64,000 nt of DNA from a virus: IMG/VR virus record IMGVR_UViG_3300046168_000050. One strand, written 5' to 3'. Shown here in pieces: positions 5,705 to 36,321 of this stretch. The position numbers were made by a program, and so were the translations under genes. The notes under the pieces were generated by a model that saw nothing but the letters and a program-made list of their open reading frames with translations, was not told the origin of the DNA and did no database searches. Positions within the stretch are counted from its first letter, which is position 1, and every line of letters begins with the position of its first letter.

Positions 5705-5962
5705 TTAGCCTCTTACTTTCGCTGCCAGATCTTTGTCTGCTTTTCCCCATGTACCAGATGATTTGGTAACAAATGAATTTACTCTTGCATGTCCCCATTG
5801 TGATGGAGTAGTACCCGGCCGATGACCGGTTTTCCACGCGGCTACACCTCTATTATAAACCTGACGAAGAACGCCTAATGGCATGCCAGTTTTTTCTGCT
5901 TTCTTTTTTAAAGAAGCTGTCGCATCTTCTGCAATATATGCTTTAAAATTAATCATCGCCAT
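5705..5962 (-). CDS. DUF5824-like small basic protein, CTS-like N-terminus
   Basis: LRQVYNRGVAAWKTGHRPG...QWGHARVNSF; N-term MINFKAYIAE. Confidence 0.7.
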   Translation of the reverse strand: MAMINFKAYIAEDATASLKKKAEKTGMPLGVLRQVYNRGVAAWKTGHRPGTTPSQWGHARVNSFVTKSSGTWGKADKDLAAKVRG

Positions 5963-7100
5963 ACATCTTTCTATATTTTATGGTGTGTTTAGATAATCTT
6001 GTTTTTGCTTTTGCATCACCAGGCGCAGGCTTATATGCCTTTGGATCACTATCAGACATTTTTGCCTGTTTTTTAAACTGCCTATCTCTTGCAATTTTCT
6101 GTGCTTTCTTTAGGCCTCTATGATAATTAGCCGGCTGAGAACCTGGCCTATCTTTAATGTCACTATCTTGTGCTTCTGTTGTTTCACCTGGAGTTATTTT
6201 CTTAGCTTTTCTAGTTGATTCGGGCGTACCCCAATCAGGTTTATCCGCATACATTGATGCTTCATTAGTAATATCTGAATCTATCTTAGACACATCATCA
6301 AGCCAGCATCTCCACGTTTCATTTTTTGACTCTACTATAAGATAGTTTGTGCCAAGGTATTTTATATTGCCTACAATACCCTTTTTAGTTAGTACAACTT
6401 TTTCACCTTCTTCAAAAATATTATCTTTAAGATAAGCCTCACGCAGGTCAGAGACGGGCTCTAATTGAATATGATTTTTAAATTGTTTTTCTTCTTTTAG
6501 CCCTAGCCCAGACCTTACATCATTAAATAATCGTTTTGCGTTTGAATTTGACATATTGGATGGAAGGCTTCTGGCAAACCCAGTAAAATCATTGGCTACG
6601 GCATATTCCCTCTGTTTAGTTCCGGATGCGCCTTCTGCTCCATCAGCATCGGGGTCTCTTTCACCTGCAGATATAATTTTTATGCCGCCTTCAAAATTAT
6701 AAAATCCATGATCACCTTTTTTTCCATTATATTTATTTAAACGCACATCATATTGAGTAACGCGATCTGATCCTGCAACCATAACTACCTTCTTATAACC
6801 TTGATCATATAAAAATGATAAAGCATGAAAAGGTGTTTTAATTTTATTATTTAAAATAATAGACCGTGCGTGCTTCGGAAACATTTTTCTAATATGTTTT
6901 ACTTTATCTTTATATTGCAACGGATTTTTTTTCTTGTCATTAGATTGTGACAAGAATATTCTATATGGAAATCTCCGTGCTTTTTTAGATAAAGTATCTA
7001 GTAACTTACCATGACCAATAGTAGGTGGATTCATTCTACCAAAGGTAAAATAAACTACATTTTCTTCTTCAACAAGAAACTGACTAAAACGATTTATCAT
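5949..7100 (-). CDS. HxGH nucleotidyltransferase (cytidylyltransferase/NMNAT-like) with C-terminal extensions
   Basis: FGRMNPPTIGH, AGSDR, SGTKQR motifs; N-term MINRFSQFLVEE. Confidence 0.8.
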   Translation of the reverse strand: MINRFSQFLVEEENVVYFTFGRMNPPTIGHGKLLDTLSKKARRFPYRIFLSQSNDKKKNPLQYKDKVKHIRKMFPKHARSIILNNKIKTPFHALSFLYDQGYKKVVMVAGSDRVTQYDVRLNKYNGKKGDHGFYNFEGGIKIISAGERDPDADGAEGASGTKQREYAVANDFTGFARSLPSNMSNSNAKRLFNDVRSGLGLKEEKQFKNHIQLEPVSDLREAYLKDNIFEEGEKVVLTKKGIVGNIKYLGTNYLIVESKNETWRCWLDDVSKIDSDITNEASMYADKPDWGTPESTRKAKKITPGETTEAQDSDIKDRPGSQPANYHRGLKKAQKIARDRQFKKQAKMSDSDPKAYKPAPGDAKAKTRLSKHTIKYRKMYGDD

Positions 7101-7101
7101 A

Positions 7102-7557
7102 TTACCCGCGTTTTCTACCTAATTCTGTTTGACGTATTTTAGGAAGCATTTTTTTGGCCAACCTAGTTATTCTAGGGGCCATTTTATCTAAACGCTTTTC
7201 AATCTCTTGTTTCCGGGCCGGAGTAAGATCTGCCTTTGAAATACCCTTAGTAAGCTTTTTAGCTATCGCATTACGAGCAGCCTTACGAGATCTTTTAGCA
7301 AGAACCTTAGGGTTAGCAACTTTAGCTGCTGCCTTTTTACGGCCAACTGCTAACCTAGCCTGATACTTTTTCATTGATCTTGCTTTAGCTCTTCTCTGGG
7401 TCATAGTAAGAGCCTCATCAGTAGGTTCTACTGATTCACCGGTATTTCCGGTAGGCGAATATTGTTTACGTTTTTTGGCTGCTTGCTTAATCAGGTCATC
7501 TTCACCTGGCATGTAATCAACAGCCATAAAGTCTTTAAAATTTAAATTCTTTGCCAT
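7102..7557 (-). CDS. basic virion/core-like protein
   Basis: Highly K/R-rich after ..TDEALT; N-term NFKDFM. Confidence 0.6.
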   Translation of the reverse strand: MAKNLNFKDFMAVDYMPGEDDLIKQAAKKRKQYSPTGNTGESVEPTDEALTMTQRRAKARSMKKYQARLAVGRKKAAAKVANPKVLAKRSRKAARNAIAKKLTKGISKADLTPARKQEIEKRLDKMAPRITRLAKKMLPKIRQTELGRKRG

Positions 7558-8787
7558 TTAGTTCCTCGTTGGCTTATCCCATCCCTTTAATATATCTGGT
7601 GAAAAATTATTGTATGAAAATTCCATACGATCAATAATTTTTACCGCATCACCACCAAGTTTATCAATTGCTACATAACCTTCTTCACCGGTTACTTTAT
7701 AACCGTTACGAGTTTTAACGAAAGTATTGATTTTACTCAATTTATTAAGGTTATTTATAAGTTTTAATTTTGCTAAAACTATAACCTTTTGCAAATCAAA
7801 CATATACTTTAGGCTATCTTTATTACCTTGTGAGAAAAAACTAAGTATTTCATTTAGTTTTTTCTGTTGTGCCGACTTACCCTTTTCACTTTTACGTTTA
7901 TCTATTTCTTTCTGATACTTCTGACTAATCCACTTGATAAGTGCGGTGACATGTCTGTTGGTATCTCCAATGATTTGCCCTTGTCTGACATAGGAGTTAT
8001 TGAATTGCTCCACAAGCCTGGCAAGCTCTGTATTGGATTCCAGTTGTCGTAGAGTTGATCCGGCGATTTTATTGAATATAAACCCAGCTTGCGAAAGATA
8101 GTCGCTAACAATTTCGGTATCCTTTTTGCTCATAGTAACATTAGTTAAGTCTCTTAGCATTGCATCTTGAGACCATACACTTTTAACTGATTTTAGTTTT
8201 GAAACATCAACACCGTAAGAAGCTTTCATAGATTCAAAAGTATTACCCTTATAGGTTGTATGCCAGACAATACCAATTTTTGCAGATTTAACTGCTTCAG
8301 CTCCAGCCGATTTACTTGGCAATGCATAAACAATAGTATTCGGATGAAATGTTACATAAGATTCACTTTTTATCTTTTTCGTCTTGACATCTCCAGGGCC
8401 AAATAAAAAGTCTCCTTGTATTACACCTTTAATCCCTAAGGCTGGAAGGTGCTTAAGAGCCAGCTTAAGTTTAACTGCAAGATCACCAGAAGTGTCAGCG
8501 TCCACGTCAGCATTAGACTTATATACCTTAGGATTTTTATTGAAAATTCCTTTCTTAGCAACAAAGAAATTACCATCGCGGGGATCAGTGCCAGCAAAGA
8601 TGGCAGGTGCTCCGTCCCACTTAACACTGACAGATCCATCATGCACTCCTCTTAACATATCTCTCAATTCACGCAAAGCTAGAATAGCCTGCCTTGTACC
8701 CTTAACGCCGCCATAGATAACTTTATCCTCTATGTGCGTCATATGAGTATTTTTACTTTCTTTTATATATGATGTAAAGTTTTCCAT
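7558..8787 (-). CDS. ligase-fold nucleotidyltransferase (DUF6267-like)
   Basis: KNTHMTHIED; ligase-like motifs VKWDG (I), QGD (III), EGYV (IV), VKI (V); N-term MENFTSYIKE. Confidence 0.7.
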   Translation of the reverse strand: MENFTSYIKESKNTHMTHIEDKVIYGGVKGTRQAILALRELRDMLRGVHDGSVSVKWDGAPAIFAGTDPRDGNFFVAKKGIFNKNPKVYKSNADVDADTSGDLAVKLKLALKHLPALGIKGVIQGDFLFGPGDVKTKKIKSESYVTFHPNTIVYALPSKSAGAEAVKSAKIGIVWHTTYKGNTFESMKASYGVDVSKLKSVKSVWSQDAMLRDLTNVTMSKKDTEIVSDYLSQAGFIFNKIAGSTLRQLESNTELARLVEQFNNSYVRQGQIIGDTNRHVTALIKWISQKYQKEIDKRKSEKGKSAQQKKLNEILSFFSQGNKDSLKYMFDLQKVIVLAKLKLINNLNKLSKINTFVKTRNGYKVTGEEGYVAIDKLGGDAVKIIDRMEFSYNNFSPDILKGWDKPTRN

Positions 8788-17836: not shown

Positions 17837-18319
17837 ATGATAGATCCGATCACGGCAATTAGTGCTGCGACGGCTGCTTTCAATGGTGTGAAGAAACTCG
17901 TGGCTGCTGGCCGGGATATAGAAGATGTTGTTGGTCAATTAGGAAAGTGGTATGGCGCCGCAGCAGATTTAAGTAGAGCTGAACAGCAGAGGAAAAATCC
18001 TCCAATGTTTAGCAGATTATTCATGAGTGGTTCAGTCGAAGAAGAGGCGCTGGCCATTATAGTTCAAAAAAAGAAATTAGAAGAGCAAGAGAAAACTTTA
18101 CAAGAGTTATTAAACCATAGATTTGGTTATGGCACTTGGAAAGAAATGGTAGAATTACGTCGAAAGATTAGAAAAGAGCGTGAAGAAACCGTATATAAAC
18201 AGCAAGAAAAACGTCAGGCATTTCAAGAAGGATTACTCTTAATTTTTTTAGTCGCCGCCGGCTTTGCTATTGTAGGCGGTACTACTTTTATGGTAGGTTT
18301 GGGAGCCGGATGGTGGTAG
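17837..18319 (+). CDS. membrane protein (MIDPIT-type, C-terminal TM)
   Basis: GGAGG RBS, late promoter, coiled coil plus TM. Confidence 0.75.
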   Translation: MIDPITAISAATAAFNGVKKLVAAGRDIEDVVGQLGKWYGAAADLSRAEQQRKNPPMFSRLFMSGSVEEEALAIIVQKKKLEEQEKTLQELLNHRFGYGTWKEMVELRRKIRKEREETVYKQQEKRQAFQEGLLLIFLVAAGFAIVGGTTFMVGLGAGWW

Positions 18320-19336
18320 CTACATCATAAAGGCTTCTAACGATTGTTGTGCTACTGGAGGATTTCCTTGCCTTTGTTCCCAGCCAGATTCCCACCCGGA
18401 TGCATTAGCTAGTGTTGAAGGAATATGATCAAACGTGCCGTTGCCACGTGGGACATAGTTTTGCCCAAATCTGACAAAGTCACACATCACATCTTCTAAA
18501 TCTTTTGGTTTGCCGCCAGTTCTTTCACGAAGTAAATCCATAAAGTTATCAGCTTTCCAACCACCAGATAGTTTTTTCATGCAGCGTACTGCATTATTTC
18601 CTAAATATGTGTGTGAATCAACGTCACCATGTTCAGGGAAATAGTCAGAACAATCCATAGAAAAGGCCGCATATTGAAAGTTAAATTTTCTATGGCCGTT
18701 CGCTGCATTATGTGTATTAAGAAAGTCAACTATTTCTTTATGTCCACGCTTTTCTTTTAAGAAGAAATCAGTAAATCTGTTCATAAGATCAGGTAATTCT
18801 TTTACCATAAAGTCTACATTAGACGTTCCTTTTTTTGGTGCAGGAGGCTGATTACCTATTGATGTAAACAGCGGTTTACCTGATGCCTTTGTTTGCACTA
18901 GGTCTTCTGACATATCTTGAACATCACGGTGTTTTCCCCAATGCTGTACTATATTATTACGATAACCATGATCGTTTTCAAATGATGCACCAGACCCTGT
19001 AATTCTGTGACACATAAAAACATATAACCACGTTTTAATATCCCACTGAATATTATCATTCGCTGCTGATATTTTTCTTCTATCCTTTTTCTGCCAGCGC
19101 CACTTCGGAGTCTTAGAACCAAATCTTAAGTCCTGTAGTACATTTGAAAAGCCAGCAGCATTTCGTGTTTTACAGTCGTAGATATCAATCTTCTGCATCA
19201 GAGGATCGTTAACAATTTTATTTGCCTCTGGACCTTCATAATCAAGCTCTCCCCAGTTTACATTATCTTGAAGCCAGCCAGCTTTTGGATAATAATAATT
19301 GACAAGAACATCGATTGCTTCTTCATTAAGCCACAT
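18320..19336 (-). CDS. amino acid:DNA transferase (aGPT-PPlase clade 2-like)
   Basis: IDIYD..R..AGFS, WLYVF..HRITGSG...DHGYRN, FTSIGNQPP; context next to PLP enzyme. Confidence 0.7.
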   Translation of the reverse strand: MWLNEEAIDVLVNYYYPKAGWLQDNVNWGELDYEGPEANKIVNDPLMQKIDIYDCKTRNAAGFSNVLQDLRFGSKTPKWRWQKKDRRKISAANDNIQWDIKTWLYVFMCHRITGSGASFENDHGYRNNIVQHWGKHRDVQDMSEDLVQTKASGKPLFTSIGNQPPAPKKGTSNVDFMVKELPDLMNRFTDFFLKEKRGHKEIVDFLNTHNAANGHRKFNFQYAAFSMDCSDYFPEHGDVDSHTYLGNNAVRCMKKLSGGWKADNFMDLLRERTGGKPKDLEDVMCDFVRFGQNYVPRGNGTFDHIPSTLANASGWESGWEQRQGNPPVAQQSLEAFMM

Positions 19337-20210
19337 TCTTAACCCAGTCTCTATAGGAATCAATACTATCAGGAAGATTTTTATTTTGCAGTACAGGCTC
19401 TTTACCTACGTTCCACATTAATATATTCTTGCCTGAATTTTTTGGAATGTATTTCCATACTTTGCCATCATATGTATCTATAGTCGGAAATGGTGGCAAG
19501 TTTTCTTTTTTCTCTGTAGCTGTAAATGCCAAAGGCTCTGACACAGCTTTGGCTGTACCCAGTTCCCCTGCCTTCATATTACGAGATACACAAACAGATG
19601 TAAACTTGGCATTTGGCCAAGCTATTTGTAATGCACGAGTAAGAACACCGGTGGATGTTGCAACATATACCTCATCAGGCGGATCAATTGCCATAGCACT
19701 TTTTACAATACCAGCGGTTACCATTTCGTGTTTTAAGCCCAATGGAACAAAATAAGCGTCTTTGTTTTTACTGGCCCATTTTTGTGCAATCAAGTTTAAA
19801 TTAGGCATTGCTGCTATTCGGTGAAATTCTGCAGAAGCTCCTCGCTCAATGCAACAGGCTTGGTGATCGGAAATGCGTTTGGAGGAAGGCATAAACAGCT
19901 TAACATTTTTTCCGTGTCTTTTGGCCACATCAAGTATACTAACACCAGCAAGACCAGTGCGAGGCTGAACATATACGATAGTACGGATATGATCAGGGAG
20001 AGAAGATATGAGACAATCCCCGCCACGAACCTTACTGCCAGTAATATAATCATCGCGAACAACACGTACACCAGAGTGTTCAGTGACAATAGGTTCTCCA
20101 TATGGATCCTCCCAATCTTTTGCAAGTTCTAAATAGTATTCTTTTGGATCGCCGTATAATGCCGGAATATCTTTATTAATGCCATCAATTACATGATTAT
20201 TATGTGCCAT
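19326..20210 (-). CDS. PLP-dependent enzyme (fold type II)
   Basis: VVRDD..GSKVR, ATSTGVL, PTIDTYDGKVW, WNVG. Confidence 0.75.
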   Translation of the reverse strand: MAHNNHVIDGINKDIPALYGDPKEYYLELAKDWEDPYGEPIVTEHSGVRVVRDDYITGSKVRGGDCLISSLPDHIRTIVYVQPRTGLAGVSILDVAKRHGKNVKLFMPSSKRISDHQACCIERGASAEFHRIAAMPNLNLIAQKWASKNKDAYFVPLGLKHEMVTAGIVKSAMAIDPPDEVYVATSTGVLTRALQIAWPNAKFTSVCVSRNMKAGELGTAKAVSEPLAFTATEKKENLPPFPTIDTYDGKVWKYIPKNSGKNILMWNVGKEPVLQNKNLPDSIDSYRDWVKNVA

Positions 20211-21145
20211 TACATAAAACTTTCTAATGTATTTTCTGAAATGCCCCAGTTCATACGACGATAGTACATCGGATTAAGATGAACTGACTGAGGTTTTTCC
20301 ATTCTTTCTGCAGCATAACGCTCTTCATCCATGTCATACCACGCTTGAGGTGCTTTTACTAATTTCATTCCATAGATTTTCATACAGCCTTCCATATTCC
20401 AAGCTGCTAACATTCTTTCGCCTCTATCTCCCCAAAATGGTTTGCCTTTATAGTAACCAGTTTTAGGCAGCTTACGGTCTTCGAATTCAATAGGCCATGG
20501 TACGGCATATTCTACTTCAATACCAAGACTTCTACCAAAATCAGAATAAGCTTCTACCATTTTATAGATGTCAGTTTGAACCCTGCACAGATGGTGGCGC
20601 ACATCAATATTACCAAGAGATATAGTAACACCTTTATGATGTGGTTTGATATGAGATCTGATATATGCAAAGTCTTCTTTGATCTGACCGAACAATGTAG
20701 TCCCATCTTGTTTGACTACACTTGAATTCTTCGGGGCGTATGCGCACACGTGGCTATCACCAATCGCTAACCATTCGTGTGGTAAATCGCTACCTACAAG
20801 AGACTTAGCTTCAGAAAGCTTCTCAGTTATAGCATCACACCATACTTTATCTATAACGTCTTTTCGCTTCTTTAACTGAGCGCCATAGTCAACTGGAGGA
20901 CCGTCAAGCACTGTTATTGTTTCTGATGCAAGTAAGTTATCAATCCAATCCTTAATAACTTCAGTAAAACCTCCCATAAGATTAATGCTTCCGCCAAAGT
21001 TAGCACCAGGCAAAAGATATACATCTTTATGCTTTCCATTCGTGTGGTCAATAGGTACGCCAAGATTTTCTGACCAAGTCCTGGCATAACCATAGCTATG
21101 GCTCGATTCTTTCTTTGGTATTTTACTAAAGGTTCCGACTATCAT
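20210..21145 (-). CDS. SGNH/GDSL-like domain protein in DNA modification cluster
   Basis: IGDSH, GTT, LGNID, SVHL blocks. Confidence 0.5.
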   Translation of the reverse strand: MIVGTFSKIPKKESSHSYGYARTWSENLGVPIDHTNGKHKDVYLLPGANFGGSINLMGGFTEVIKDWIDNLLASETITVLDGPPVDYGAQLKKRKDVIDKVWCDAITEKLSEAKSLVGSDLPHEWLAIGDSHVCAYAPKNSSVVKQDGTTLFGQIKEDFAYIRSHIKPHHKGVTISLGNIDVRHHLCRVQTDIYKMVEAYSDFGRSLGIEVEYAVPWPIEFEDRKLPKTGYYKGKPFWGDRGERMLAAWNMEGCMKIYGMKLVKAPQAWYDMDEERYAAERMEKPQSVHLNPMYYRRMNWGISENTLESFM

Positions 21146-21582
21146 TCTACAAACTCATATGTTATACCTGCTTCGTTGAACAATATTTCTGAGTGGCCCC
21201 AAGATTTTTTCCAATTTTCTTTTATTTCCTGCTTCGGCATAACAACGCGCTTAATACCTACTTGAATCACGCCTTTTGCACACTCAGAGCACACAGGCAA
21301 ACCAGTGACATATATTGTGGATTGATCTAAAGACACGCCGTTATATGTGGCGTTATAGATCAAGTTTTGTTCGGCATGTACGATATATTGGTACTTAAGT
21401 TCTCTATCATTTAAGCGCGCGCCGCCATCAAATATGCCTCGAGGGAATCCATTATATCCTTGTGCTAAAACCTGACCTTTAGATCCTACGGCTACCGCGC
21501 CAATTTGCGACGATGGATCTTTAGACCAGGTTCCTACTGTTCTAGCAAGCTCTAAGTAACGAAGATCCCATTTATTACTCAT
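21142..21582 (-). CDS. cd: dCMP deaminase
   Basis: GYNG, HAEQN, PVCSEC. Confidence 0.9.
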   Translation of the reverse strand: MSNKWDLRYLELARTVGTWSKDPSSQIGAVAVGSKGQVLAQGYNGFPRGIFDGGARLNDRELKYQYIVHAEQNLIYNATYNGVSLDQSTIYVTGLPVCSECAKGVIQVGIKRVVMPKQEIKENWKKSWGHSEILFNEAGITYEFVE

Positions 21583-22283
21583 CGCACTAACTCAAAGTGC
21601 CGCTCATACACATGAAGATTTTGAACCTGCCAGATCATCATACCAGGCTCAATGGCTGTACCATTTCCATTTGAAGTACGTTCAAAGCGTCTGAAATTAT
21701 AATCATCACACAATTTTTGTACTACGTGCATTTGCCATGCATTATCATTCTTATATCCGAAGACCACATCATTAGATCTCATTTGCACAACAGAATGTAG
21801 TAGGCCGTCACGAACATAATACGTGACTGCATTAGTACAAATAAAATCATTCTTGCCATTATCTTTATAGTCTACCCAGATATTAGGGCGGTTGTAGACC
21901 ATAGTGGCGCGTCTACCATCAGGATGTTCTAAAAGCTCTGTCAGTACATTATCATATTGATTGTGATATGAGTCACTAAAAATAAGTTTGCCATAGTTAG
22001 AATTAATTTCACCATGATGGTTGGCAGCATACTTCCATGCATCAGGCGGACCTCGATGCTCACCATAAATGTCATTAATATTAGTTGACATATTATGATA
22101 CCATAATAATTCTTGGTTAATATATCCTTGATTTGGCTGTCCGAAGATTGAAGGTTCAGTTGCAACAAATGACGCGCCGATCAATTCAATAGTCTTAGCG
22201 CCGGTTTTATCTATAGTGAATGCTTCATCATTGAGCTCACCTATAAAAAACCGGCGGATATCTTCTACGCTATCCATTCTCAT
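21579..22283 (-). CDS. 42: dCMP hydroxymethylase (T4 gp42-like, thymidylate synthase fold)
   Basis: GEINSNYG, DFICT, MRSNDVVFGYKND, LHVYERHF. Confidence 0.8.
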   Translation of the reverse strand: MRMDSVEDIRRFFIGELNDEAFTIDKTGAKTIELIGASFVATEPSIFGQPNQGYINQELLWYHNMSTNINDIYGEHRGPPDAWKYAANHHGEINSNYGKLIFSDSYHNQYDNVLTELLEHPDGRRATMVYNRPNIWVDYKDNGKNDFICTNAVTYYVRDGLLHSVVQMRSNDVVFGYKNDNAWQMHVVQKLCDDYNFRRFERTSNGNGTAIEPGMMIWQVQNLHVYERHFELVR

Positions 22284-22600
22284 TATTCATCTCCTGTTAT
22301 ATAGCGATCATCCATATGATGATGCCCATCTGATATGTGCTGCATTAGTATCATTAATTGTGTGGTGGCGTGTGCAAGATGACTATAGCCTGATTCAGGA
22401 TCTAGATCTTCACCATTCCAGAATGAATTAAGGTGGCGTTGAATAGACGAATATGTACGAGACCATTCTGTACAATGTCCGTCATCACGCCAGTTATTAG
22501 TACCATATTTATTAGCGCCAAAGCCAAGTACTTCTGCAACTTGGGTCAGCGAATCAATGGGTACTAGTGCGTGCGGGGCTTTTCCATTATCATATTTCAT
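22283..22600 (-). CDS. dATP/dGTP diphosphohydrolase-domain protein (DUF5664-like)
   Basis: KYDNGK, FGANKYG..NW, RHL..F..GEDLDPESG.SHLAHA. Confidence 0.8.
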   Translation of the reverse strand: MKYDNGKAPHALVPIDSLTQVAEVLGFGANKYGTNNWRDDGHCTEWSRTYSSIQRHLNSFWNGEDLDPESGYSHLAHATTQLMILMQHISDGHHHMDDRYITGDE

Positions 22601-22602
22601 AA

Positions 22603-23040
22603 TTATATTCTATCATATTCTAGTGGATATGTAAACCTATTATTTTTATTAATATGTTTTAGTGCATCTTTTGCATCAATATAATCTAAGATTTTATACT
22701 CGACTACTTGGTTTTCTTCAAGAGGACCAGGCCATGGTCTAGACCACATCCAAATTCCAAGTTTATCAATGCGGCCATTGCGTATTTGTTTTTGAATATA
22801 TTCTGATACATGAACACCAGACTTAGAATACATCTTATAGTCAATGGATCCAAGCATCTGATGATATGTATCATATTCATAGCCATCATACAAAGTCTGA
22901 AACTGATCAACCTTTGCTTGATGGAATTCTACGAATTCAGAATCCCACCGAAAATAAGGGTTCGGTCGATTATCTTCGTTGATTTTTTCGTCACGCTGAA
23001 TAATAAAAGCTTTGTCGACCTTAGCTTTAAAGTGTGTCAT
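22603..23040 (-). CDS. hypothetical protein
   Basis: GGAG RBS; ORF. Confidence 0.65.
   Translation of the reverse strand: MTHFKAKVDKAFIIQRDEKINEDNRPNPYFRWDSEFVEFHQAKVDQFQTLYDGYEYDTYHQMLGSIDYKMYSKSGVHVSEYIQKQIRNGRIDKLGIWMWSRPWPGPLEENQVVEYKILDYIDAKDALKHINKNNRFTYPLEYDRI
22607..22635 (-). promoter_or_regulatory. promoter TTTACA-17-TAGAAT, apparently leaderless
   Basis: -10 ends 6 nt before ATG 22600. Confidence 0.55.
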
Positions 23041-23261: not shown

Positions 23262-23299
23262 TAAAAAAATGCGCCAAAGCGCATTTTAGTTTTGTTTGT

Positions 23300-23318: not shown

Positions 23319-23801
23319 TTATCCAAATCTAGCTAAATATTGTCCTATTCGACCTACAAAAGGTAGAAGCATAAGAGCCATAAGTAAGTTCATTCCCGTA
23401 TGAGCCATAGCAATTCGTAGCGTATCACCTTTTGGCATTCCATCAGAAACAAATAAACCAGCTAACCATATTGTACCTGTCGTACCGATGTTAGCTCCGA
23501 GCACACAAGCAATAGCGGCGGGTAGAGGTAAAGCACCAGAAGCGACTAGTGCAATAATAGCAGTAGTAGATAGTGAAGACGATTGCCATAGCAATGTCAT
23601 GATGATTCCACCGAAGAACATATAGATCGGACTACCTAGAAACCAGTTAAGGTGTTCCATATTCCCCATAGATTTCATTCCACCTGAGAATGTCTTAAGT
23701 CCAATATAAAAAATGACCAGCCCAACAAGGGCTGTTATCATCGGGTTTCCTAGGTCCATTTTCTTTACCTTTTTCCAAAGTTTTTTACCTTCATTTTTCA
23801 T
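23319..23801 (-). CDS. Na+/Pi cotransporter-family protein (single repeat)
   Basis: QSSS and GANIGTT motifs, several TM helices. Confidence 0.85.
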   Translation of the reverse strand: MKNEGKKLWKKVKKMDLGNPMITALVGLVIFYIGLKTFSGGMKSMGNMEHLNWFLGSPIYMFFGGIIMTLLWQSSSLSTTAIIALVASGALPLPAAIACVLGANIGTTGTIWLAGLFVSDGMPKGDTLRIAMAHTGMNLLMALMLLPFVGRIGQYLARFG

Positions 23802-24214
23802 TAGACGATGCTCGGCAGATCGCCATGATTGCCTTCATGGGACGGCGGTGTCCAACCGCCTGGCTTTAATAAATCAGGTAAACCAAAACGATTAGGCCGA
23901 CCAGGTTTTACGCCAGGTTCTTTTGCCATATTGGCATCATAGATCTTATTCCATGCCTCATTAGCATCTACGCCCATTACATCAAGAGTGCCAATAGCAA
24001 ATACACACATATCAATTAGGCCGTCAACAACTTCTTCTGCATCAGAATTATTAATAGCAGACAGCGTCTCTTGGTACTCTTCACCAATCATAAGCATACG
24101 AAACATAAGATATTTCTGCATCAAAGTTTTGTCGCCACGATTAGCTTGAAACCAATCGTGTACACCAAACTTGTCGTGCATGTTTTTAATATCATTTACC
24201 CAATTGTCACTCAT
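23801..24214 (-). CDS. MazG-like/PRA-PH NTP pyrophosphohydrolase (dCTPase candidate)
   Basis: EEYQE...EEVVDGLID...ANMAK...DLLKP.GW..P. Confidence 0.8.
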   Translation of the reverse strand: MSDNWVNDIKNMHDKFGVHDWFQANRGDKTLMQKYLMFRMLMIGEEYQETLSAINNSDAEEVVDGLIDMCVFAIGTLDVMGVDANEAWNKIYDANMAKEPGVKPGRPNRFGLPDLLKPGGWTPPSHEGNHGDLPSIV

Positions 24215-24240: not shown

Positions 24241-24269
24241 ATTCTATCATATTTGTGAAATATTGTAAA
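24241..24269 (-). promoter_or_regulatory. promoter TTTACA-17-TAGAAT
   Basis: Recurrent motif variant. Confidence 0.65.
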
Positions 24270-24277
24270 CATCTAAT

Positions 24278-24721
24278 TTACGGCTTATACGTTTTACTTT
24301 TACCATTATGCTCATTACATGTCACACTTACAACACTGCACCTATCACCTGTTACATTTGCGGCAGTCTTACTAATTTCTTTATATGCCATATATGCAAA
24401 ATGTTCTGTACTAACTATAGGAACAATTTTGATTTGAGCCAGTCCTCTGCCTTCTAATAATTTAAATGTTTTAAGCTGAGGATCAGATTCTAATAAAATA
24501 ACCTTATACGCAAAATTATTTTCTAACCATTTGTTAAATGGTTTCAGCGCATTAAAATCTATTACTACCCCATTTGAATCTAGCTCATCACATGTAAAAT
24601 CTACGCTAAACGTTAATGAATAGCCATGTAAAAATTGATCGTACAGAGTTGAATTTAAATGTCTAAGGCACCCTTGTAATTCATTATTATACCCATAAGT
24701 TTTTGTACTATAGTAAGCCAA
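24278..24721 (-). CDS. QueD/PTPS-like protein, apparently degenerate active site
   Basis: YYSTKTYG, LHGYS, ELD.NG.VIDF..LK; lacks the usual Cys and first His region. Confidence 0.65.
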   Translation of the reverse strand: MAYYSTKTYGYNNELQGCLRHLNSTLYDQFLHGYSLTFSVDFTCDELDSNGVVIDFNALKPFNKWLENNFAYKVILLESDPQLKTFKLLEGRGLAQIKIVPIVSTEHFAYMAYKEISKTAANVTGDRCSVVSVTCNEHNGKSKTYKP

Positions 24722-27416: not shown

Positions 27417-28461
27417 TAGCATCCTCCACGATATCATCCATATCTACTAAAGATTGATGACCAATACTATATTGCTTCTTTAAGAAATCTTTAAAATCTG
27501 TTTCAGCAAAGATTGGATCCCAGAAGGATTTATCAAGAGTGGCATCATGCCGAACCTTAGATCCAATTTCTCCAGATGTCTGATCAACAGCAGCATACCA
27601 GCCATTAGAAGGCTTAGTGACATAACCACCAGCAAGAGCGCAATCGAGCAACCCAGAGTACTTACGGACACCACCGTCCCAGGAAACAGTAATAGGAATT
27701 TTAGACTTTTCTTTAACATAACGACTTTTCTCCACGTTAATTACAAAGTGATAACCTTGAATCTCAGTGCCTTTCTTATCTTGTTGCCGGCCGAGGATCC
27801 AGATATTATCTGCGCTGTAGTATATACCAGTACCTCCACCAACAATAGCCTTTGGAAATAATCCAATTTCCATATACGTGTGATTGACAGCAATAAGTGG
27901 AATATTCTTCATTGTAAGATACGGTGTAGACATGCGGAACAAACCTTTTAAGGCTTTGGCGCGAGACATATCTGCAACGGACTTTTCATTGATAGCATCT
28001 TCTAATTCTTTTTTTGATGCTAAGTTGCCAATAGAGTCAATAACAATAATGACTTTATCATTTCTATCAATCTGTTCTAGTTGCCCAATAAGATCAAACT
28101 TGAGTTCTTCTACGTTAGCAATAGGAGTATGTAGAATGCGGGATGTGTCAATGCCAAACTGCTCAAAATAACTTTGAGGTGAACCAAACTCTGAGTCATA
28201 GAATAGCATAACAGCGTCTGCATGTTTCTTGAGATAGGCGCCCGCCATCAACAATGCAAAAGAAGTCTTAAAGTGTTTAGACGGTCCGGCTAGAACCGTA
28301 AGCCCGGGCGCTAGCCCGCCGTCAACTGATCCCGACAATGCCACATTAACCATAGGCACATCGGTCGGAGTCATATCTTTCTCTGTAAAAAACTTAGAGT
28401 CTGCTAGGACTTCAGCCGTTTTGATTTTACTGTTTTTCTTCAGTTTGTCCATAATCGACAT
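27409..28461 (-). CDS. uvsX: RecA-like recombinase UvsX
   Basis: AGPSKHFKT, YDSEFG, DSIGNL. Confidence 0.95.
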   Translation of the reverse strand: MSIMDKLKKNSKIKTAEVLADSKFFTEKDMTPTDVPMVNVALSGSVDGGLAPGLTVLAGPSKHFKTSFALLMAGAYLKKHADAVMLFYDSEFGSPQSYFEQFGIDTSRILHTPIANVEELKFDLIGQLEQIDRNDKVIIVIDSIGNLASKKELEDAINEKSVADMSRAKALKGLFRMSTPYLTMKNIPLIAVNHTYMEIGLFPKAIVGGGTGIYYSADNIWILGRQQDKKGTEIQGYHFVINVEKSRYVKEKSKIPITVSWDGGVRKYSGLLDCALAGGYVTKPSNGWYAAVDQTSGEIGSKVRHDATLDKSFWDPIFAETDFKDFLKKQYSIGHQSLVDMDDIVEDANG

Positions 28462-29263
28462 TTTGTTCTCTTTCTCTTTCGTCTAATTCATACATAGCTC
28501 TGTATTCATTATTAATTCTAACACATTCTCCAAGCAATGTAAACCCTTTATCGTGATTAAATAATGCACTTGTATCTTTTGGAAAGCATGCTCCACCATA
28601 TCCACGTTTATTGTCAAGACCTGGCACCGCAGTATGAGATTGTCCAATACGTGGGTCGGATATAATAGCGTTTACTATTTTATTATAAGAACCCTTGTTA
28701 TTTTCTATCACATCGTAAAACTGATTAAAGAATAACACTTTCATAGCTAAGAAAGAATTGATCCCATACTTGACATAGCTGGCATCTACTGCTGACATGC
28801 GATGAACCGGACAAGGCCGGCAAAGACTATGCTCTTTATAGTAGAATTCTAAGTCATCAATAATACCGTTTTCACCACCAAAAATATGCATACCTGGATT
28901 GATGAAGTCGTCAACAGCATTTTTTTCTGTAAGAAACTCAGGGTTATATATGATTCTATTTCCGCCTGATCCTTTTATAAGACTTTTTATAATATCAGGA
29001 GTAACAGTCGACTTAATGACAATAATACCTGACATTCGTTTTTTAAGTTGTTTGACGGTGTCTACTAAGATACTAGAATCAATAACTCCGTTTTTTCCCA
29101 TTGGCGTTGGCACACATACAAATGCTATATTTTCTTGTAATTTAATATCTTTAAGACTTACATTGTATTTAGGATCTACTAATTGTATTCTTACACCCGG
29201 AGTTTTAAAACCATATTCTACGGCCTTACCGACAAAACCATGGCCTACAATAGTAATTTTCAT
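28427..29263 (-). CDS. UDP-glucose/GDP-mannose dehydrogenase family
   Basis: GHGFVG, CVPTP, KSTV, NPEFL, GYGGACFPKD. Confidence 0.88.
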   Translation of the reverse strand: MKITIVGHGFVGKAVEYGFKTPGVRIQLVDPKYNVSLKDIKLQENIAFVCVPTPMGKNGVIDSSILVDTVKQLKKRMSGIIVIKSTVTPDIIKSLIKGSGGNRIIYNPEFLTEKNAVDDFINPGMHIFGGENGIIDDLEFYYKEHSLCRPCPVHRMSAVDASYVKYGINSFLAMKVLFFNQFYDVIENNKGSYNKIVNAIISDPRIGQSHTAVPGLDNKRGYGGACFPKDTSALFNHDKGFTLLGECVRINNEYRAMYELDEREREQNVDYGQTEEKQ

Positions 29264-29267
29264 TCTT

Positions 29268-29678
29268 TTATCCTATATTTGATAGACGAGTTCTTAATTC
29301 CGATGACGAAAATCTATGATCTCTTTTATTATAATACAATTCAATGTTTCTGGCAGAACAAATAGATCTGCCTGTAAACGTATCTCTTTTATATTCTTCA
29401 CCTAAAATTCTTACGTCGAAATGAAACATCTGCAGAATGTCTTCTAGATCTTGCTCCGTTTGATATGGAATTATTTCATCTACATATTTTACGCCTTGAA
29501 GCTGAGTCCATCTTTCTACTAAAGATTGAACCGGTGAATTCTTATTTGACCGATCTACACTCGGATCTACTTGCAAACCGCATATCAGATAATCACAAAC
29601 TGTTTTAGCTTCTCGTAACATTGATATATGACCTGCATGTAGCAGATCAAACGTCGAAGCAGTAAATCCTATTTTCAT
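29268..29678 (-). CDS. TagD-like cytidylyltransferase
   Basis: STFDLLHAGH, R.H.FSSSELR. Confidence 0.85.
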   Translation of the reverse strand: MKIGFTASTFDLLHAGHISMLREAKTVCDYLICGLQVDPSVDRSNKNSPVQSLVERWTQLQGVKYVDEIIPYQTEQDLEDILQMFHFDVRILGEEYKRDTFTGRSICSARNIELYYNKRDHRFSSSELRTRLSNIG

Positions 29679-30052
29679 GGGTTTGAACTATCGTCATCAA
29701 AGTCATCATCCATATGATATCCTACAGTTTCACGTTCAATATCGTTATGATTAAACTCGGCCCAATATAATTCATAAGCTATGCCTTCTTTAAGACATTC
29801 AAATTGATGATAGAGACCAGGTTTTACTTTATGATACTCTCCTTCATCTAGAACAGTGACATCACATAAATCATAGTCACGCTGCCATGTGCGGATAAGC
29901 ATTTTACCAGATTCAACATAGAAGCCATTCCATTTATAACGATGCAAATGTTTTGAGCAAACTCCACCTTCTTCCATTTCAATACGATGAAACTCTAAAG
30001 CACCATTGGCTTCAATCAGTTCTGTCGTGCCCCATATTTTACCGGCTTTCAT
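29675..30052 (-). CDS. cupin-domain protein
   Basis: KIWG, CSKHLH, YHQF. Confidence 0.75.
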   Translation of the reverse strand: MKAGKIWGTTELIEANGALEFHRIEMEEGGVCSKHLHRYKWNGFYVESGKMLIRTWQRDYDLCDVTVLDEGEYHKVKPGLYHQFECLKEGIAYELYWAEFNHNDIERETVGYHMDDDFDDDSSNP

Positions 30053-35591: not shown

Positions 35592-35845
35592 TAGACCCAT
35601 CCTCTTAGATTATTATTAGCTTTGACATTATTGATGGTCTCATTAGCCCGTGCAACCGTATAAATGTCGCCGCGTGTAAGACCAATATCTGCTAAATCAT
35701 AATCTGATAATTTGCCTAATTGATGTTCTGTTTCTTTAATAGCCCGAACTTCTAGACGATGCTGCCTATAGCTACGGATTGCGTCAATAAGTTGCTCAAC
35801 TACTCTCGTTGAGAAGCTGTGCGCTGTTAGTATATGTTGTGTCAT
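35591..35845 (-). CDS. DUF1127 (YjiS-like) protein
   Basis: R..R...T..QL.KLSDYDLADIGLTRGDI. Confidence 0.85.
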   Translation of the reverse strand: MTQHILTAHSFSTRVVEQLIDAIRSYRQHRLEVRAIKETEHQLGKLSDYDLADIGLTRGDIYTVARANETINNVKANNNLRGWV

Positions 35846-36266
35846 TTTGACCCTCGTTTTTTCCAATTGAAATTTTACGAGGACGCATTTCTTCAGGGAT
35901 GACGTACTTCAGTTCGATTGCAAGTATACCATCTTGAATATCTGCTCCGTGCACATTTACGTGCTCAGACAGCCGGAAGGTTCTTTTAAACTTCTTCGTA
36001 GAAATACCACGATGAATAAAGTTTCTACCTTTTGAAACATGCTCACCTGTCACAGTCAAGGTACGATCCTTAACTTCAACAGTTAGTTCATCTTGACTAA
36101 AACCGGCCACAGCTAATTCAATCAGATAATCCGACTCAGATGTTTTAATAATATTATGGGGCGGATAGTGATCGTTTGAATGTTTAGCCGTGTATTCTAA
36201 CTCGTTAAACAGATGGTCGAAACCTACAAAAGATGAACGGGGAAATAGTGTTGTTAAGCCTGTCAT
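35796..36266 (-). CDS. small heat shock protein (Hsp20/IbpA-like)
   Basis: FVGFD, YPPHNI, LAVAGF, HRGIS, DGIL, PEEMRPRKI. Confidence 0.93.
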   Translation of the reverse strand: MTGLTTLFPRSSFVGFDHLFNELEYTAKHSNDHYPPHNIIKTSESDYLIELAVAGFSQDELTVEVKDRTLTVTGEHVSKGRNFIHRGISTKKFKRTFRLSEHVNVHGADIQDGILAIELKYVIPEEMRPRKISIGKNEGQNDTTYTNSAQLLNESS

Positions 36267-36321
36267 TGTTATCTCCTTTTGATCAAGCAAGATTTTAAAT
36301 GGACCCAGTTAACTGGCATCC
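36267..36321 (-). promoter_or_regulatory. ROSE-like RNA thermometer in sHSP 5' UTR
   Basis: AUCUUGCUU pairs with AAGGAGAU (SD) with bulged G; upstream hairpin GGAUGCCAG..CUGGGUCC. Confidence 0.75.

What the first reader, a model, noticed from the sequence alone, without database searches (positions are those of the whole stretch)
18320..22283. Thymidine-hypermodification-type enzymes coupled to a cytosine hydroxymethylase: candidate new modified base
Seen: an operon of TS-fold enzyme, dCMP deaminase, SGNH-like protein, PLP enzyme and aGPT-PPlase2-like transferase. The TS-fold enzyme reads RSNDVVFGYKND, keeping the Asp that gives T4 gp42 its dCMP specificity (Asn in dUMP enzymes), and a separate ThyX supplies dTMP. 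Known: in ViI-type phages a kinase, an amino acid:DNA transferase and a PLP decarboxylase modify 5hmU. No such kinase or glucosyltransferase is visible in this window. Inference: amino acid or amine hypermodification of 5hmC, with the SGNH protein adding an acyl step or replacing activation.
Basis: partly seen in the sequence, partly recalled or inferred. Interest (0 to 1): 0.85.

Follow-up and report, generated by a model that had tools for sequence, protein, structure and literature searches.

The report
Kinase-less hydroxymethylcytosine DNA hypermodification cassette
An uncultured marine T4-like phage couples the T4-type enzyme that makes hydroxymethylcytosine to relatives of the enzymes that hang amino acids on thymine in other phages, with an esterase-fold protein where the usual DNA kinase would be, so its DNA probably carries a decorated cytosine that has not been described.

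Summary
On the minus strand, 22600-18320 is one run of overlapping genes:
- a small MazZ-like NTP pyrophosphatase;
- a gp42 dCMP hydroxymethylase orthologue (E 6e-64 to PDB 1B5D, with the Cys nucleophile and the Asp179-equivalent kept);
- a dCMP deaminase;
- an SGNH-fold protein;
- a PLP enzyme homologous to the M6 gp52-type DNA decarboxylase;
- a helical protein whose best solved match is PaMx11 gp46/PUGT, an amino acid:DNA transferase.

The last three genes plus the hydroxymethylase were found together in every fetched locus long enough to show them. That covers the longer of 80 IMG/VR loci (two gene orders), a podophage-like contig with a T7-type RNA polymerase gene, and contigs where the SGNH and transferase-like proteins are fused into one chain. 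All 60 linked hydroxymethylases keep Asp and Cys. No P-loop kinase or beta-glucosyltransferase was found in the window.

Best reading: after replication, an amino-acid-derived group is added to 5hmC. The SGNH protein would replace the 5-hmdU DNA kinase as the activating partner.

The chemistry is inferred. The transferase-like protein fails Pfam ADDT membership. No paper describing this module was found. This scan has already flagged the same module on other genomes. Cultured Aeromonas phages (44RR2.8t, 31, 25) carry a related SGNH fusion and could be tested directly.

The parts
22607..22635 (-). T4-early-type promoter-like site (TTTACA, 17 nt, TG, TAGAAT) just upstream of the first gene of the run
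   Evidence: 10 of 12 matches with an extended -10. A twin site lies at 24241-24269, ahead of the MazG gene. The number of sites in the region is not above chance, so this is a consensus match only.
22283..22600 (-). Small MazZ-like all-alpha NTP pyrophosphatase (105 aa). It is a candidate for clearing canonical dNTP (possibly dCTP); the substrate is inferred.
   Evidence: Pfam dGTP_diPhyd_N E 9e-28. A homologue lies upstream of the hydroxymethylase gene, one small gene apart, in L004 and upstream in several IMG/VR loci.
21579..22283 (-). gp42-type dCMP hydroxymethylase. Cys149 codon 21837-21839; specificity Asp180 codon 21744-21746.
21142..21582 (-). dCMP deaminase. It overlaps both neighbours by 4 nt.
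20210..21145 (-). Two-domain protein: an N-terminal alpha/beta domain with a Gly-rich NFGG..NLFGG loop, then an SGNH domain (residues 122-305; Ser131 codon 20753-20755). Proposed activating or acyl-transfer partner acting on 5hmC.
   Evidence: AF2 model pLDDT 87.9. SGNH matches at Z 10-11. The GDSH, DGxTL, GNID and SVH motifs are kept in all relatives, in the fusions and in the Aeromonas protein.
19326..20210 (-). PLP-dependent enzyme of the M6 gp52 / ViI gp226 type. Lys60 codon 20031-20033. Proposed decarboxylase of the base-linked amino acid.
   Evidence: PMC8989533 section 19.
18320..19363 (-). Helical protein that resembles an amino acid:DNA transferase. The likely start is the ATG at 19336. 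Hallmark E290-D291-x-x-C294-D295; Cys294 codon 18482-18484.
   Evidence: AF2 pLDDT 85.7. BFVD and PDB fold matches. Family conservation.
23801..24214 (-). MazG-like NTP pyrophosphatase, the weak best candidate for a gp56-like dCTPase. It belongs to the precursor-supply context, not the core cassette.
   Evidence: Pfam PRA-PH E 9e-10. 33% identity over 51 aa to 44RR gp56, E 0.055. TS, PRA-PH and dCMP deaminase co-occur on cytosine-modified contigs in PMC8670742.
24947..25633 (-). ThyX, the separate dTMP supply
   Evidence: Pfam Thy1 E 7e-41.

Best explanation
This is a gene cassette for hypermodifying 5-hydroxymethylcytosine in phage DNA.

Shown by homology:
- The gp42 orthologue makes 5-hm-dCMP.
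- The deaminase and ThyX make dTMP.
- MazZ/MazG-type pyrophosphatases are present and may clear dCTP.

Inferred:
- 5hmC is built into the DNA.
- The SGNH-domain protein then converts the 5-hydroxymethyl group into a better leaving group. The most likely route is O-acylation through its Ser131/His triad. This is the job done by the P-loop 5-hmdU DNA kinase in thymidine pathways.
- The helical transferase-like protein flips out the base, attacks C6 with Cys294, expels the leaving group and adds an amino acid.
- The PLP enzyme removes the carboxylate, which needs a free alpha-amine. With no radical-SAM isomerase in the cassette, the ViI logic applies: the amino acid is linked through its side chain (for example serine) and then decarboxylated.
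- A concrete prediction is 5-(2-aminoethoxy)methyl-dC, nominal nucleoside mass 300. The predicted O-seryl intermediate is 344.
For: gp42 orthology:
- Orthology and catalytic residues.
- Asp and Cys are kept in all 60 linked homologues, counting one read by eye.

PLP enzyme:
- Homologous to the PAE1 Orf44 / M6 gp52 class, with the Lys aligned.
- That class decarboxylates O-SerT and C-alpha-GlyT on DNA: PMC8989533.
- In M6-like phages the same PLP type sits next to the transferase.

Transferase-like protein:
- The top solved match is PUGT 8Z2M (Z 8.8, rmsd 3.9, 205 aligned).
- BFVD matches include proteins labelled as carrying an amino acid:DNA transferase domain (E 5e-14, TM 0.77, 29% identity), and more weakly 5-hmdU kinase helical domains and Pplase1.
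- The E-D-x-x-C motif is kept in 58-62 of 63 members. It resembles PUGT's E243-T244-x-x-C247, where Cys247 is the proposed nucleophile (PMC11472151).

SGNH protein:
- Fold and catalytic motifs.

Linkage:
- Seven metagenomic representatives fuse the SGNH protein to the transferase-like domain.
- Two of them were looked up. Both sit beside a TS homologue and a dUTPase_2/gp56-like gene, one of them also beside a Pfam PALP gene.
- The four genes co-occur wherever flanks allow in 80 IMG/VR loci, in two gene orders.
- They also occur on a contig with a T7-type RNA polymerase gene.

No kinase:
-.
Against: - No chemistry has been measured.
- The transferase-like family is not recognised by Pfam ADDT. 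P0002 has no hit even at E 10, and only 1 of 56 relatives hits weakly.
- Profile-profile comparison with four canonical transferases is not significant.
- Its Z of 8.8 to PUGT is tied with HhH DNA glycosylases (AGOG 8.6).
- The Cys294-to-Cys247 equivalence rests on motif shape and on the aligned ranges, not on a residue-level alignment.
- SGNH enzymes are not known to act on DNA, and no acyl donor is evident.
- The window is part of a genome, and the largest related contig searched is only 77% complete, so a kinase could lie elsewhere.
Confidence: 0.6

Rival explanations
1. The cassette hypermodifies 5hmC as above, but the SGNH protein is not the activator. It would be a tailoring enzyme (acylating or de-acylating the appended group) or an editing esterase. 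Activation would come from a kinase encoded elsewhere or from the host.
For: - SGNH enzymes are typically esterases or O-acyltransferases.
- PaMx11 ends its pathway with an acetylation step (PMC8989533, Table 1).
- The rest of this genome could not be searched.
Against: - The SGNH gene is linked to the transferase-like gene as tightly as the kinase is in thymidine systems, and the two are fused in seven representatives.
- No HMUDK_hel match was found in five related contigs.
- No kinase family was reported among the genes called around the podophage-like module or the fusion loci.
Confidence: 0.15
2. The final target is thymine-type. The adjacent deaminase would convert 5-hm-dCMP to 5-hm-dUMP, 5hmU would enter DNA, and the cassette would carry out a classical thymidine hypermodification.
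For: - A dCMP deaminase overlaps the hydroxymethylase gene and lies near the cassette in most loci.
- The downstream enzymes have their known relatives in 5hmU pathways.
Against: - dCMP deaminase together with a TS homologue and a MazG-type gene is the usual set on cytosine-modified contigs, as in T4 (PMC8670742).
- ThyX gives the deaminase an ordinary role.
- A gp56-like dCTPase sits beside the module in L094.
- The deaminase is several kb from the cassette in the second gene order, and no copy was detected in a few loci such as L028 and L035.
- The transferase-like family has Asp where PUGT has the Thr of its metal site that contacts thymine O4. This is only a hint.
Confidence: 0.1
3. The enzymes act on free nucleotides (5-hm-dCMP or 5-hm-dCTP) before replication rather than on DNA.
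For: The 5hmC carbamoyltransferase of PMC8670742 also accepts 5hmdCTP.
Against: - The transferase-like protein has the DNA-glycosylase-like, base-flipping fold of PUGT.
- The PLP homologues act on DNA.
- A PLP domain of this family is fused to a DNA methyltransferase-like domain in Erythrobacter phages.
Confidence: 0.08
4. The three downstream genes are unrelated to base modification. They would be a glycosylase-like repair or anti-defence protein, an amino-acid-metabolism gene and an esterase that merely sit next to gp42.
For: None of the three has a curated family assignment. The helical fold also matches 8-oxoguanine glycosylases.
Against: The set is conserved through two gene orders, two genomic positions, different phage types and gene fusions, and a Cys/Asp-bearing hydroxymethylase is always present.
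Confidence: 0.05

Closest known systems
Salmonella phage ViI pathway to 5-(2-aminoethoxy)methyl-dU (5-HMUDK gp67/gp243, serine:DNA transferase gp247, PLP decarboxylase gp226; PMC8989533)
   Same: - A TS homologue makes a 5-hydroxymethylpyrimidine nucleotide.
- A helical transferase-like enzyme is paired with a PLP enzyme of the same (tryptophan-synthase-beta-like) type.
- There is no radical-SAM step.
   Different: - The base is cytosine (gp42 type, Asp instead of Asn).
- There is no P-loop kinase; an SGNH-domain protein is the obligate partner.
- The transferase-like protein lies outside Pfam ADDT.
Pseudomonas phages M6 and PaMx11 (gp51/gp46 glycine:DNA transferase = PUGT, PDB 8Z2M; gp52 PLP decarboxylase; PMC8989533, PMC11472151)
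   Same: - Best solved structural match of the 18320 protein (Z 8.8).
- The PLP enzyme is homologous to the gp52 class (E 1.4e-10).
- The E-[TD]-x-x-C motif shape is shared.
   Different: - 7% identity, with no significant sequence or profile match.
- Those phages use 5hmU, a kinase and a radical-SAM or FAD enzyme, all absent here.
T4 glucosyl-hydroxymethylcytosine system (gp42, gp56, cd, alpha- and beta-glucosyltransferase)
   Same: An orthologous gp42 (about 50% identity), a dCMP deaminase, a T4-like replication-gene context, and NTP pyrophosphatases.
   Different: There is no beta-glucosyltransferase homologue. The decorating enzymes are of amino-acid-transfer type. In many relatives the cassette lies between a cytidylyltransferase-like gene and a nucleotide-sugar-dehydrogenase-like gene; in this window those two genes are adjacent, between uvsX and gp43.
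5hmC carbamoyltransferase making 5-carbamoyloxymethylcytosine (MetaGPA, PMC8670742)
   Same: A non-sugar decoration of 5hmC in environmental phages. The same precursor set is present: TS homologue, PRA-PH/MazG and dCMP deaminase.
   Different: A different enzyme class and a single step.
Aeromonas phages 44RR2.8t, 31 and 25: ORF233c (795 aa, uncharacterised)
   Same: The N-terminal 330 aa are homologous to the SGNH protein (26-30% identity to P0003, 29-36% to the metagenomic fusions), with all motifs kept. The phage has gp42 and gp56 and no beta-gt match.
   Different: The C-terminal part is not detectably related to the 18320 family; it gives only a weak HMUDK_hel hit (E 0.004) and Foldseek E 2. 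These phages have no PLP or transferase-like homologue.

Membership tests
T4 gp42 deoxycytidylate hydroxymethylase | Full-length homology to gp42 rather than to ThyA | tested here: met
   E 6e-64 to 1B5D over residues 5-233. 51% identity to gp42 of CC31/PG7. ThyA equivalogs score 39.5 bits against a 327-bit cut-off.
T4 gp42 deoxycytidylate hydroxymethylase | Catalytic Cys (T4 C148) and cytosine-specifying Asp (T4 D179) | tested here: met
   ICTN and RSNDVVFGYKND align with T4's MCTN and RSNDVVFGFRND.
T4 gp42 deoxycytidylate hydroxymethylase | Activity on dCMP and not on dUMP | not testable with these tools
   Needs an enzyme assay.
Amino acid:DNA transferase (Pfam PF18724 ADDT, formerly aGPT-Pplase2) | Match to the family HMM at or near its cut-off | tested here: not met
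   P0002 has no hit even at E 10. Only 1 of 56 relatives hits, at E 1e-3. hhalign of the family against four canonical members gives probability 1%.
Amino acid:DNA transferase (Pfam PF18724 ADDT, formerly aGPT-Pplase2) | Two-helical-bundle, glycosylase-like fold of PUGT | tested here: inconclusive
   8Z2M ranks first of 48,161 chains, but its Z of 8.8 is tied with AGOG at 8.6 and is below the level that is safe for helical folds. BFVD relatives carry the ADDT domain name.
Amino acid:DNA transferase (Pfam PF18724 ADDT, formerly aGPT-Pplase2) | Active-site Cys in the E-T-x-x-C helix | tested here: inconclusive
   E-D-x-x-C-D is kept in 58-62 of 63 family members and lies at a matching distance from the C-terminus. 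No residue-level structural alignment was available.
Amino acid:DNA transferase (Pfam PF18724 ADDT, formerly aGPT-Pplase2) | Works with a P-loop 5-hmdU DNA kinase | tested here: not met
   No such kinase in the window. No kinase family was reported among the called genes of the related loci. No HMUDK_hel match in five related contigs. All of these are incomplete genomes.
SGNH/GDSL hydrolase superfamily | SGNH fold | tested here: met
   Residues 122-305: Z 10-11 against dozens of GDSL esterases and O-acetyltransferases. Foldseek E 6e-4.
SGNH/GDSL hydrolase superfamily | Block I Ser, block II Gly, block III Asn, block V His | tested here: met
   GDSH(131), DG(148)xTL, GN(179)ID and SVH(289) are invariant across marine, podophage, fusion and Aeromonas forms. 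The block assignment is by motif pattern. Block V lacks the usual Asp three residues before the His.
M6 gp52 / ViI gp226 PLP-dependent decarboxylases acting on DNA | Homology to a gp52-class protein, with the PLP lysine | tested here: met
   hhalign 96.9%, E 1.4e-10, 216 columns to PAE1 Orf44. The SK motif carrying invariant Lys60 aligns with Orf44's FSK motif. Lee et al. name M6 gp52 K36 as the likely aldimine lysine.
M6 gp52 / ViI gp226 PLP-dependent decarboxylases acting on DNA | Decarboxylation of a base-linked amino acid | not testable with these tools
   Needs an assay.
T4 beta-glucosyltransferase (acceptor domain), for the N-terminal domain of the SGNH protein | Detectable homology of residues 1-121 to BGT | tested here: inconclusive
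   hhalign twice picks the same Gly-rich loop (NFGG..NLFGG against BGT's SSINFFGG), but at probability 1.4% and 7.6%. A PDB profile search does not find BGT. The domain could not be folded on its own.

The most novel reading that the evidence does not exclude
The SGNH-domain protein is a DNA 5-hydroxymethylcytosine O-acyltransferase. It would supply a carboxylate leaving group, giving a kinase-free way of activating a DNA base. A cysteine-dependent transferase and a PLP decarboxylase would then build an aminoalkyl-ether cytosine, for example 5-(2-aminoethoxy)methylcytosine. This would be a new natural DNA base common in marine T4-like phages and also present in other phage types.
Probability: 0.3. 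Interest if true: 0.9.

Novelty: new variant of a known kind. Interest (0 to 1): 0.78.

Why it matters
- Known amino-acid-derived DNA hypermodifications are all on thymine and all start with a dedicated DNA kinase. Known 5hmC decorations are sugars or a carbamoyl group.
- This cassette would extend amino-acid chemistry to cytosine and would replace the kinase with an esterase-fold enzyme.
- It is abundant: hundreds of protein clusters from Tara, JGI, ENA and Logan data, and 160 confirmed IMG/VR stretches.
- A new base in abundant ocean phages would affect restriction evasion, virome sequencing and base-calling.
- The enzymes could become tools for labelling 5hmC.

Tried and rejected
- Megablast of the region and tblastn of the 18320 protein against 50,697 phage records found nothing.
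- PDB sequence searches with profiles of the transferase-like, SGNH, PLP and N-domain families gave no useful hit.
- Foldseek against the PDB for the 18320 model gave only weak AGOG glycosylase rows. The exhaustive aligner was needed to surface 8Z2M.
- hhalign of the family against gp46 alone, and against four canonical transferases, was not significant. It suggested a different register (residues 205-220) that the structural ranges make impossible.
- An HMM of 63 family members does not hit the C-terminal half of Aeromonas ORF233c, nor does hhalign. I therefore do not count the Aeromonas protein as an SGNH::transferase fusion of this family.
- The BGT-like N-domain lead remained non-significant.
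- The ESM Atlas gave no usable hit for the N-domain.
- No whole genome is held for the window.
- Literature searches found no paper on this module.

Full report
**Context.** The window is a marine T4-like myophage.
- Its gp23 is 65% identical to that of Phage C48C1 and about 60% identical to those of the Methylophilales phage Melnitz and Pelagibacter phage HTVC008M.
- It carries gp43, gp41, UvsX, UvsW, gp44/62/45, gp46/47, gp55, RegA and ThyX.
- G+C content is 34-41%.
- No whole genome is held for it.

**The observation.** Genes on the minus strand from 22600 to 18320 overlap or abut their neighbours by 1-11 nt. A T4-early-type promoter-like site lies at 22635-22607. This is a consensus match only.

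The order is: MazZ-like pyrophosphatase, TS-fold enzyme, dCMP deaminase, SGNH-like protein, PLP enzyme, helical protein. A convergent plus-strand ORF ends at 18319, next to the last gene's end, which marks the end of the run.

**The hydroxymethylase.**
- It is a gp42 orthologue, about 51% identical to gp42 of CC31/PG7-type phages, with E 6e-64 to the T4 enzyme in the PDB. The nucleophile Cys and the Asp of RSNDVVFGYKND align with T4's.
- It falls far below the ThyA equivalog cut-offs.
- I examined 60 hydroxymethylase homologues: those next to the cassette in related loci, plus T4 and 44RR as controls. Fifty-nine show Asp and Cys in the alignment. The sixth (L094) shows them when read directly (RSNDLVYGFCID).
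- So the nucleotide made is hm-dCMP, by homology.

**The PLP enzyme.**
- It gives only a weak PALP hit but a strong match to the PHROG named 'threonine dehydratase'.
- That annotation is what M6-like phages carry on the gene next to their amino acid:DNA transferase.
- A profile of the marine family aligns to PAE1 Orf44 (M6 gp52 class) at 96.9% probability, E 1.4e-10. The invariant Lys60 falls on the SK motif where Orf44 has FSK.
- Lee et al. showed that M6 gp52 and ViI gp226 are PLP-dependent decarboxylases acting on amino-acid:nucleobase conjugates in DNA, and that they need a free alpha-amine (PMC8989533).
- A domain of the same family is fused to a DNA-methyltransferase-like domain in Erythrobacter phages. 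This also points to a role on DNA.

**The 18320 protein.**
- It has no Pfam, PHROG, NCBIfam or PDB sequence match.
- It belongs to a large metagenomic family: 282 clusters within the length window searched, and 141 representatives at 50% identity.
- Its AlphaFold model is confident (pLDDT 85.7, all-helical).
- Against viral models, the three best matches are uncultured-phage proteins at 27-29% identity. One carries the name 'Amino acid:DNA transferase domain-containing protein' (E 5e-14, TM 0.77). Next come a second protein with that name (14% identity), then 5-hmdU DNA kinase helical domains and Pplase1 proteins at E 1e-3 to 1e-1.
- Against 48,161 solved chains, the first match is PaMx11 gp46/PUGT, the 5-phosphomethyl-dU glycinyltransferase (8Z2M: Z 8.8, rmsd 3.9, 205 residues). 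It is tied with HhH 8-oxoguanine glycosylases. The PUGT authors reported the same glycosylase-like neighbours (PMC11472151).
- By sequence the family is not Pfam ADDT.
- Its hallmark E290-D291-x-x-C294-D295 is kept in 58-62 of 63 members, fusions included. It has the shape of PUGT's E243-T244-x-x-C247, where Cys247 is the proposed C6 nucleophile and Glu243/Thr244 hold the metal that contacts thymine O4.
- The equivalence fits the aligned ranges but is an inference. The Thr-to-Asp difference might reflect cytosine's N4 amine, which is speculative.

**The SGNH protein.**
- The model (pLDDT 87.9) has an SGNH domain at residues 122-305, with Z 10-11 to many GDSL esterases and to peptidoglycan O-acetyltransferases.
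- The GDSH, DGxTL, GNID and SVH motifs are invariant across all forms.
- The N-terminal domain (1-121) has conserved SH and NFGG..NLFGG motifs and no assigned fold.
hhalign repeatedly picks BGT's SSINFFGG loop but without significance.

**Linkage: the new evidence here.**
1. Seven 50%-identity representatives (639-790 aa) carry the SGNH protein at the N-terminus and the transferase-like domain at the C-terminus. I looked up two. Each sits beside a TS homologue and a dUTPase_2-type gene. In L094 there is also a Pfam PALP gene, and the dUTPase_2 gene resembles gp56 (E 1.6e-20). In the other, an unassigned 293-aa gene follows the fusion. This build mirrors 5-HMUDK, which is a P-loop kinase fused to a helical domain of the same superfamily.
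2. In 80 IMG/VR loci, the four genes are all present whenever the contig reaches far enough. They occur in two orders: TS-deaminase-SGNH-PLP-transferase, and TS-transferase-PLP-SGNH.
3. In many relatives the cassette lies between a cytidylyltransferase-like gene and a nucleotide-sugar-dehydrogenase-like gene. In this window those two genes are adjacent at 28427-29678, so the cassette has moved as a unit.
4. A 52-kb contig with a T7-type RNA polymerase gene carries the same four genes plus a deaminase and a MazG-like gene.
5. Cultured Aeromonas phages (44RR2.8t, 31, 25 and relatives; 40 records) encode a 795-aa protein. Its first 330 residues are this SGNH protein, and its C-terminus gives a weak HMUDK_hel hit. 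44RR2.8t has gp42 and gp56 and no beta-gt match.

**Absences.**
- In the window, Walker-A motifs occur only in gp41, gp44, gp46 and one unassigned ORF.
- There is no BGT homologue.
- Five related contigs have no HMUDK_hel match, but none of them is complete.

**Mechanism.** The most economical reading transfers the ViI logic to cytosine.
- The SGNH protein provides the leaving group on the 5-hydroxymethyl carbon. The evidence is obligate linkage and fusion to the transferase-like protein, and the absence of a kinase.
- The Cys-bearing helical enzyme substitutes that group with an amino acid.
- The PLP enzyme decarboxylates it.
- Because the decarboxylase class needs a primary amine and there is no radical-SAM isomerase, attachment through the side chain is favoured.

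Shown: gene identities, folds, conservation and linkage. Inferred: substrate (5hmC in DNA), order of steps, acyl activation, and the identity of the amino acid.

**Literature and earlier notes.** No paper in the searchable library describes this module. The closest are PMC8989533, PMC11472151, PMC8670742 and PMC8256090. This scan has already flagged the same module on several other genomes, with similar conclusions. Those notes are not independent evidence.

**Verdict.** I class it as a new variant of a known kind of system. Interest is high, and the cultured Aeromonas phages offer a practical way to test it.

Noticed in passing
window 28427-30052 (-): A short nucleotide-sugar dehydrogenase-like gene (278 aa, lacking the ends of the family model), a 136-aa TagD/RfaE-like cytidylyl- or adenylyltransferase, and a 125-aa ORF lie between uvsX and the primase. 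In many relatives the hypermodification cassette sits between the transferase and the dehydrogenase genes (for example L018: 2677-3072, cassette, 7051-7869). These are either just the flanks of a mobile cassette or suppliers of an activated donor.
   Followed up: partly
L001 5992-8379 (Aeromonas phage 44RR2.8t ORF233c) and L001 4399-5922: A cultured T4-like phage with gp42 and gp56 and no beta-gt match encodes a 795-aa fusion of an SGNH-like domain and a helical domain. A sodium:solute symporter gene lies next to it. What decorates 5hmC in these phages appears to be unknown.
   Followed up: partly
L003 2326-4764 (Erythrobacter phage ZS04 gp7); also phage R6L gp1 and Microcystis phage Mae-JY30: An 812-aa protein annotated as a DNA methyltransferase contains a PLP domain of the same family as the window's PLP enzyme (33% identity), beside an N6/N4 methylase motif. 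It may be an undescribed PLP-dependent DNA modification.
   Followed up: no
window 23319-23801 (-): A 160-aa ORF matches only the first part of a Na+/Pi cotransporter domain (Pfam E 1e-15). It is followed by a strong bidirectional terminator-like hairpin at 23266-23287.
   Followed up: no
window 24241-24269 and 22607-22635 (-): Two promoter-like sites of identical form (TTTACA, 17 nt, TG, TAGAAT). Each lies just upstream of a pyrophosphatase gene start.
   Followed up: no
window 24278-24721 (-), 5949-7100 (-), 7558-8787 (-), 35796-36290 (-): Auxiliary genes: a PTPS/QueD-like protein, a 383-aa cytidyltransferase-like protein (PHROG E 3e-69), DUF6267 and an Hsp20.
   Followed up: no
L005 (ENA contig, 51.7 kb): A contig with a T7-type RNA polymerase gene carries the whole cassette with a much more divergent SGNH protein (31% identity over the core only). 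This shows transfer of the cassette between phage types.
   Followed up: partly
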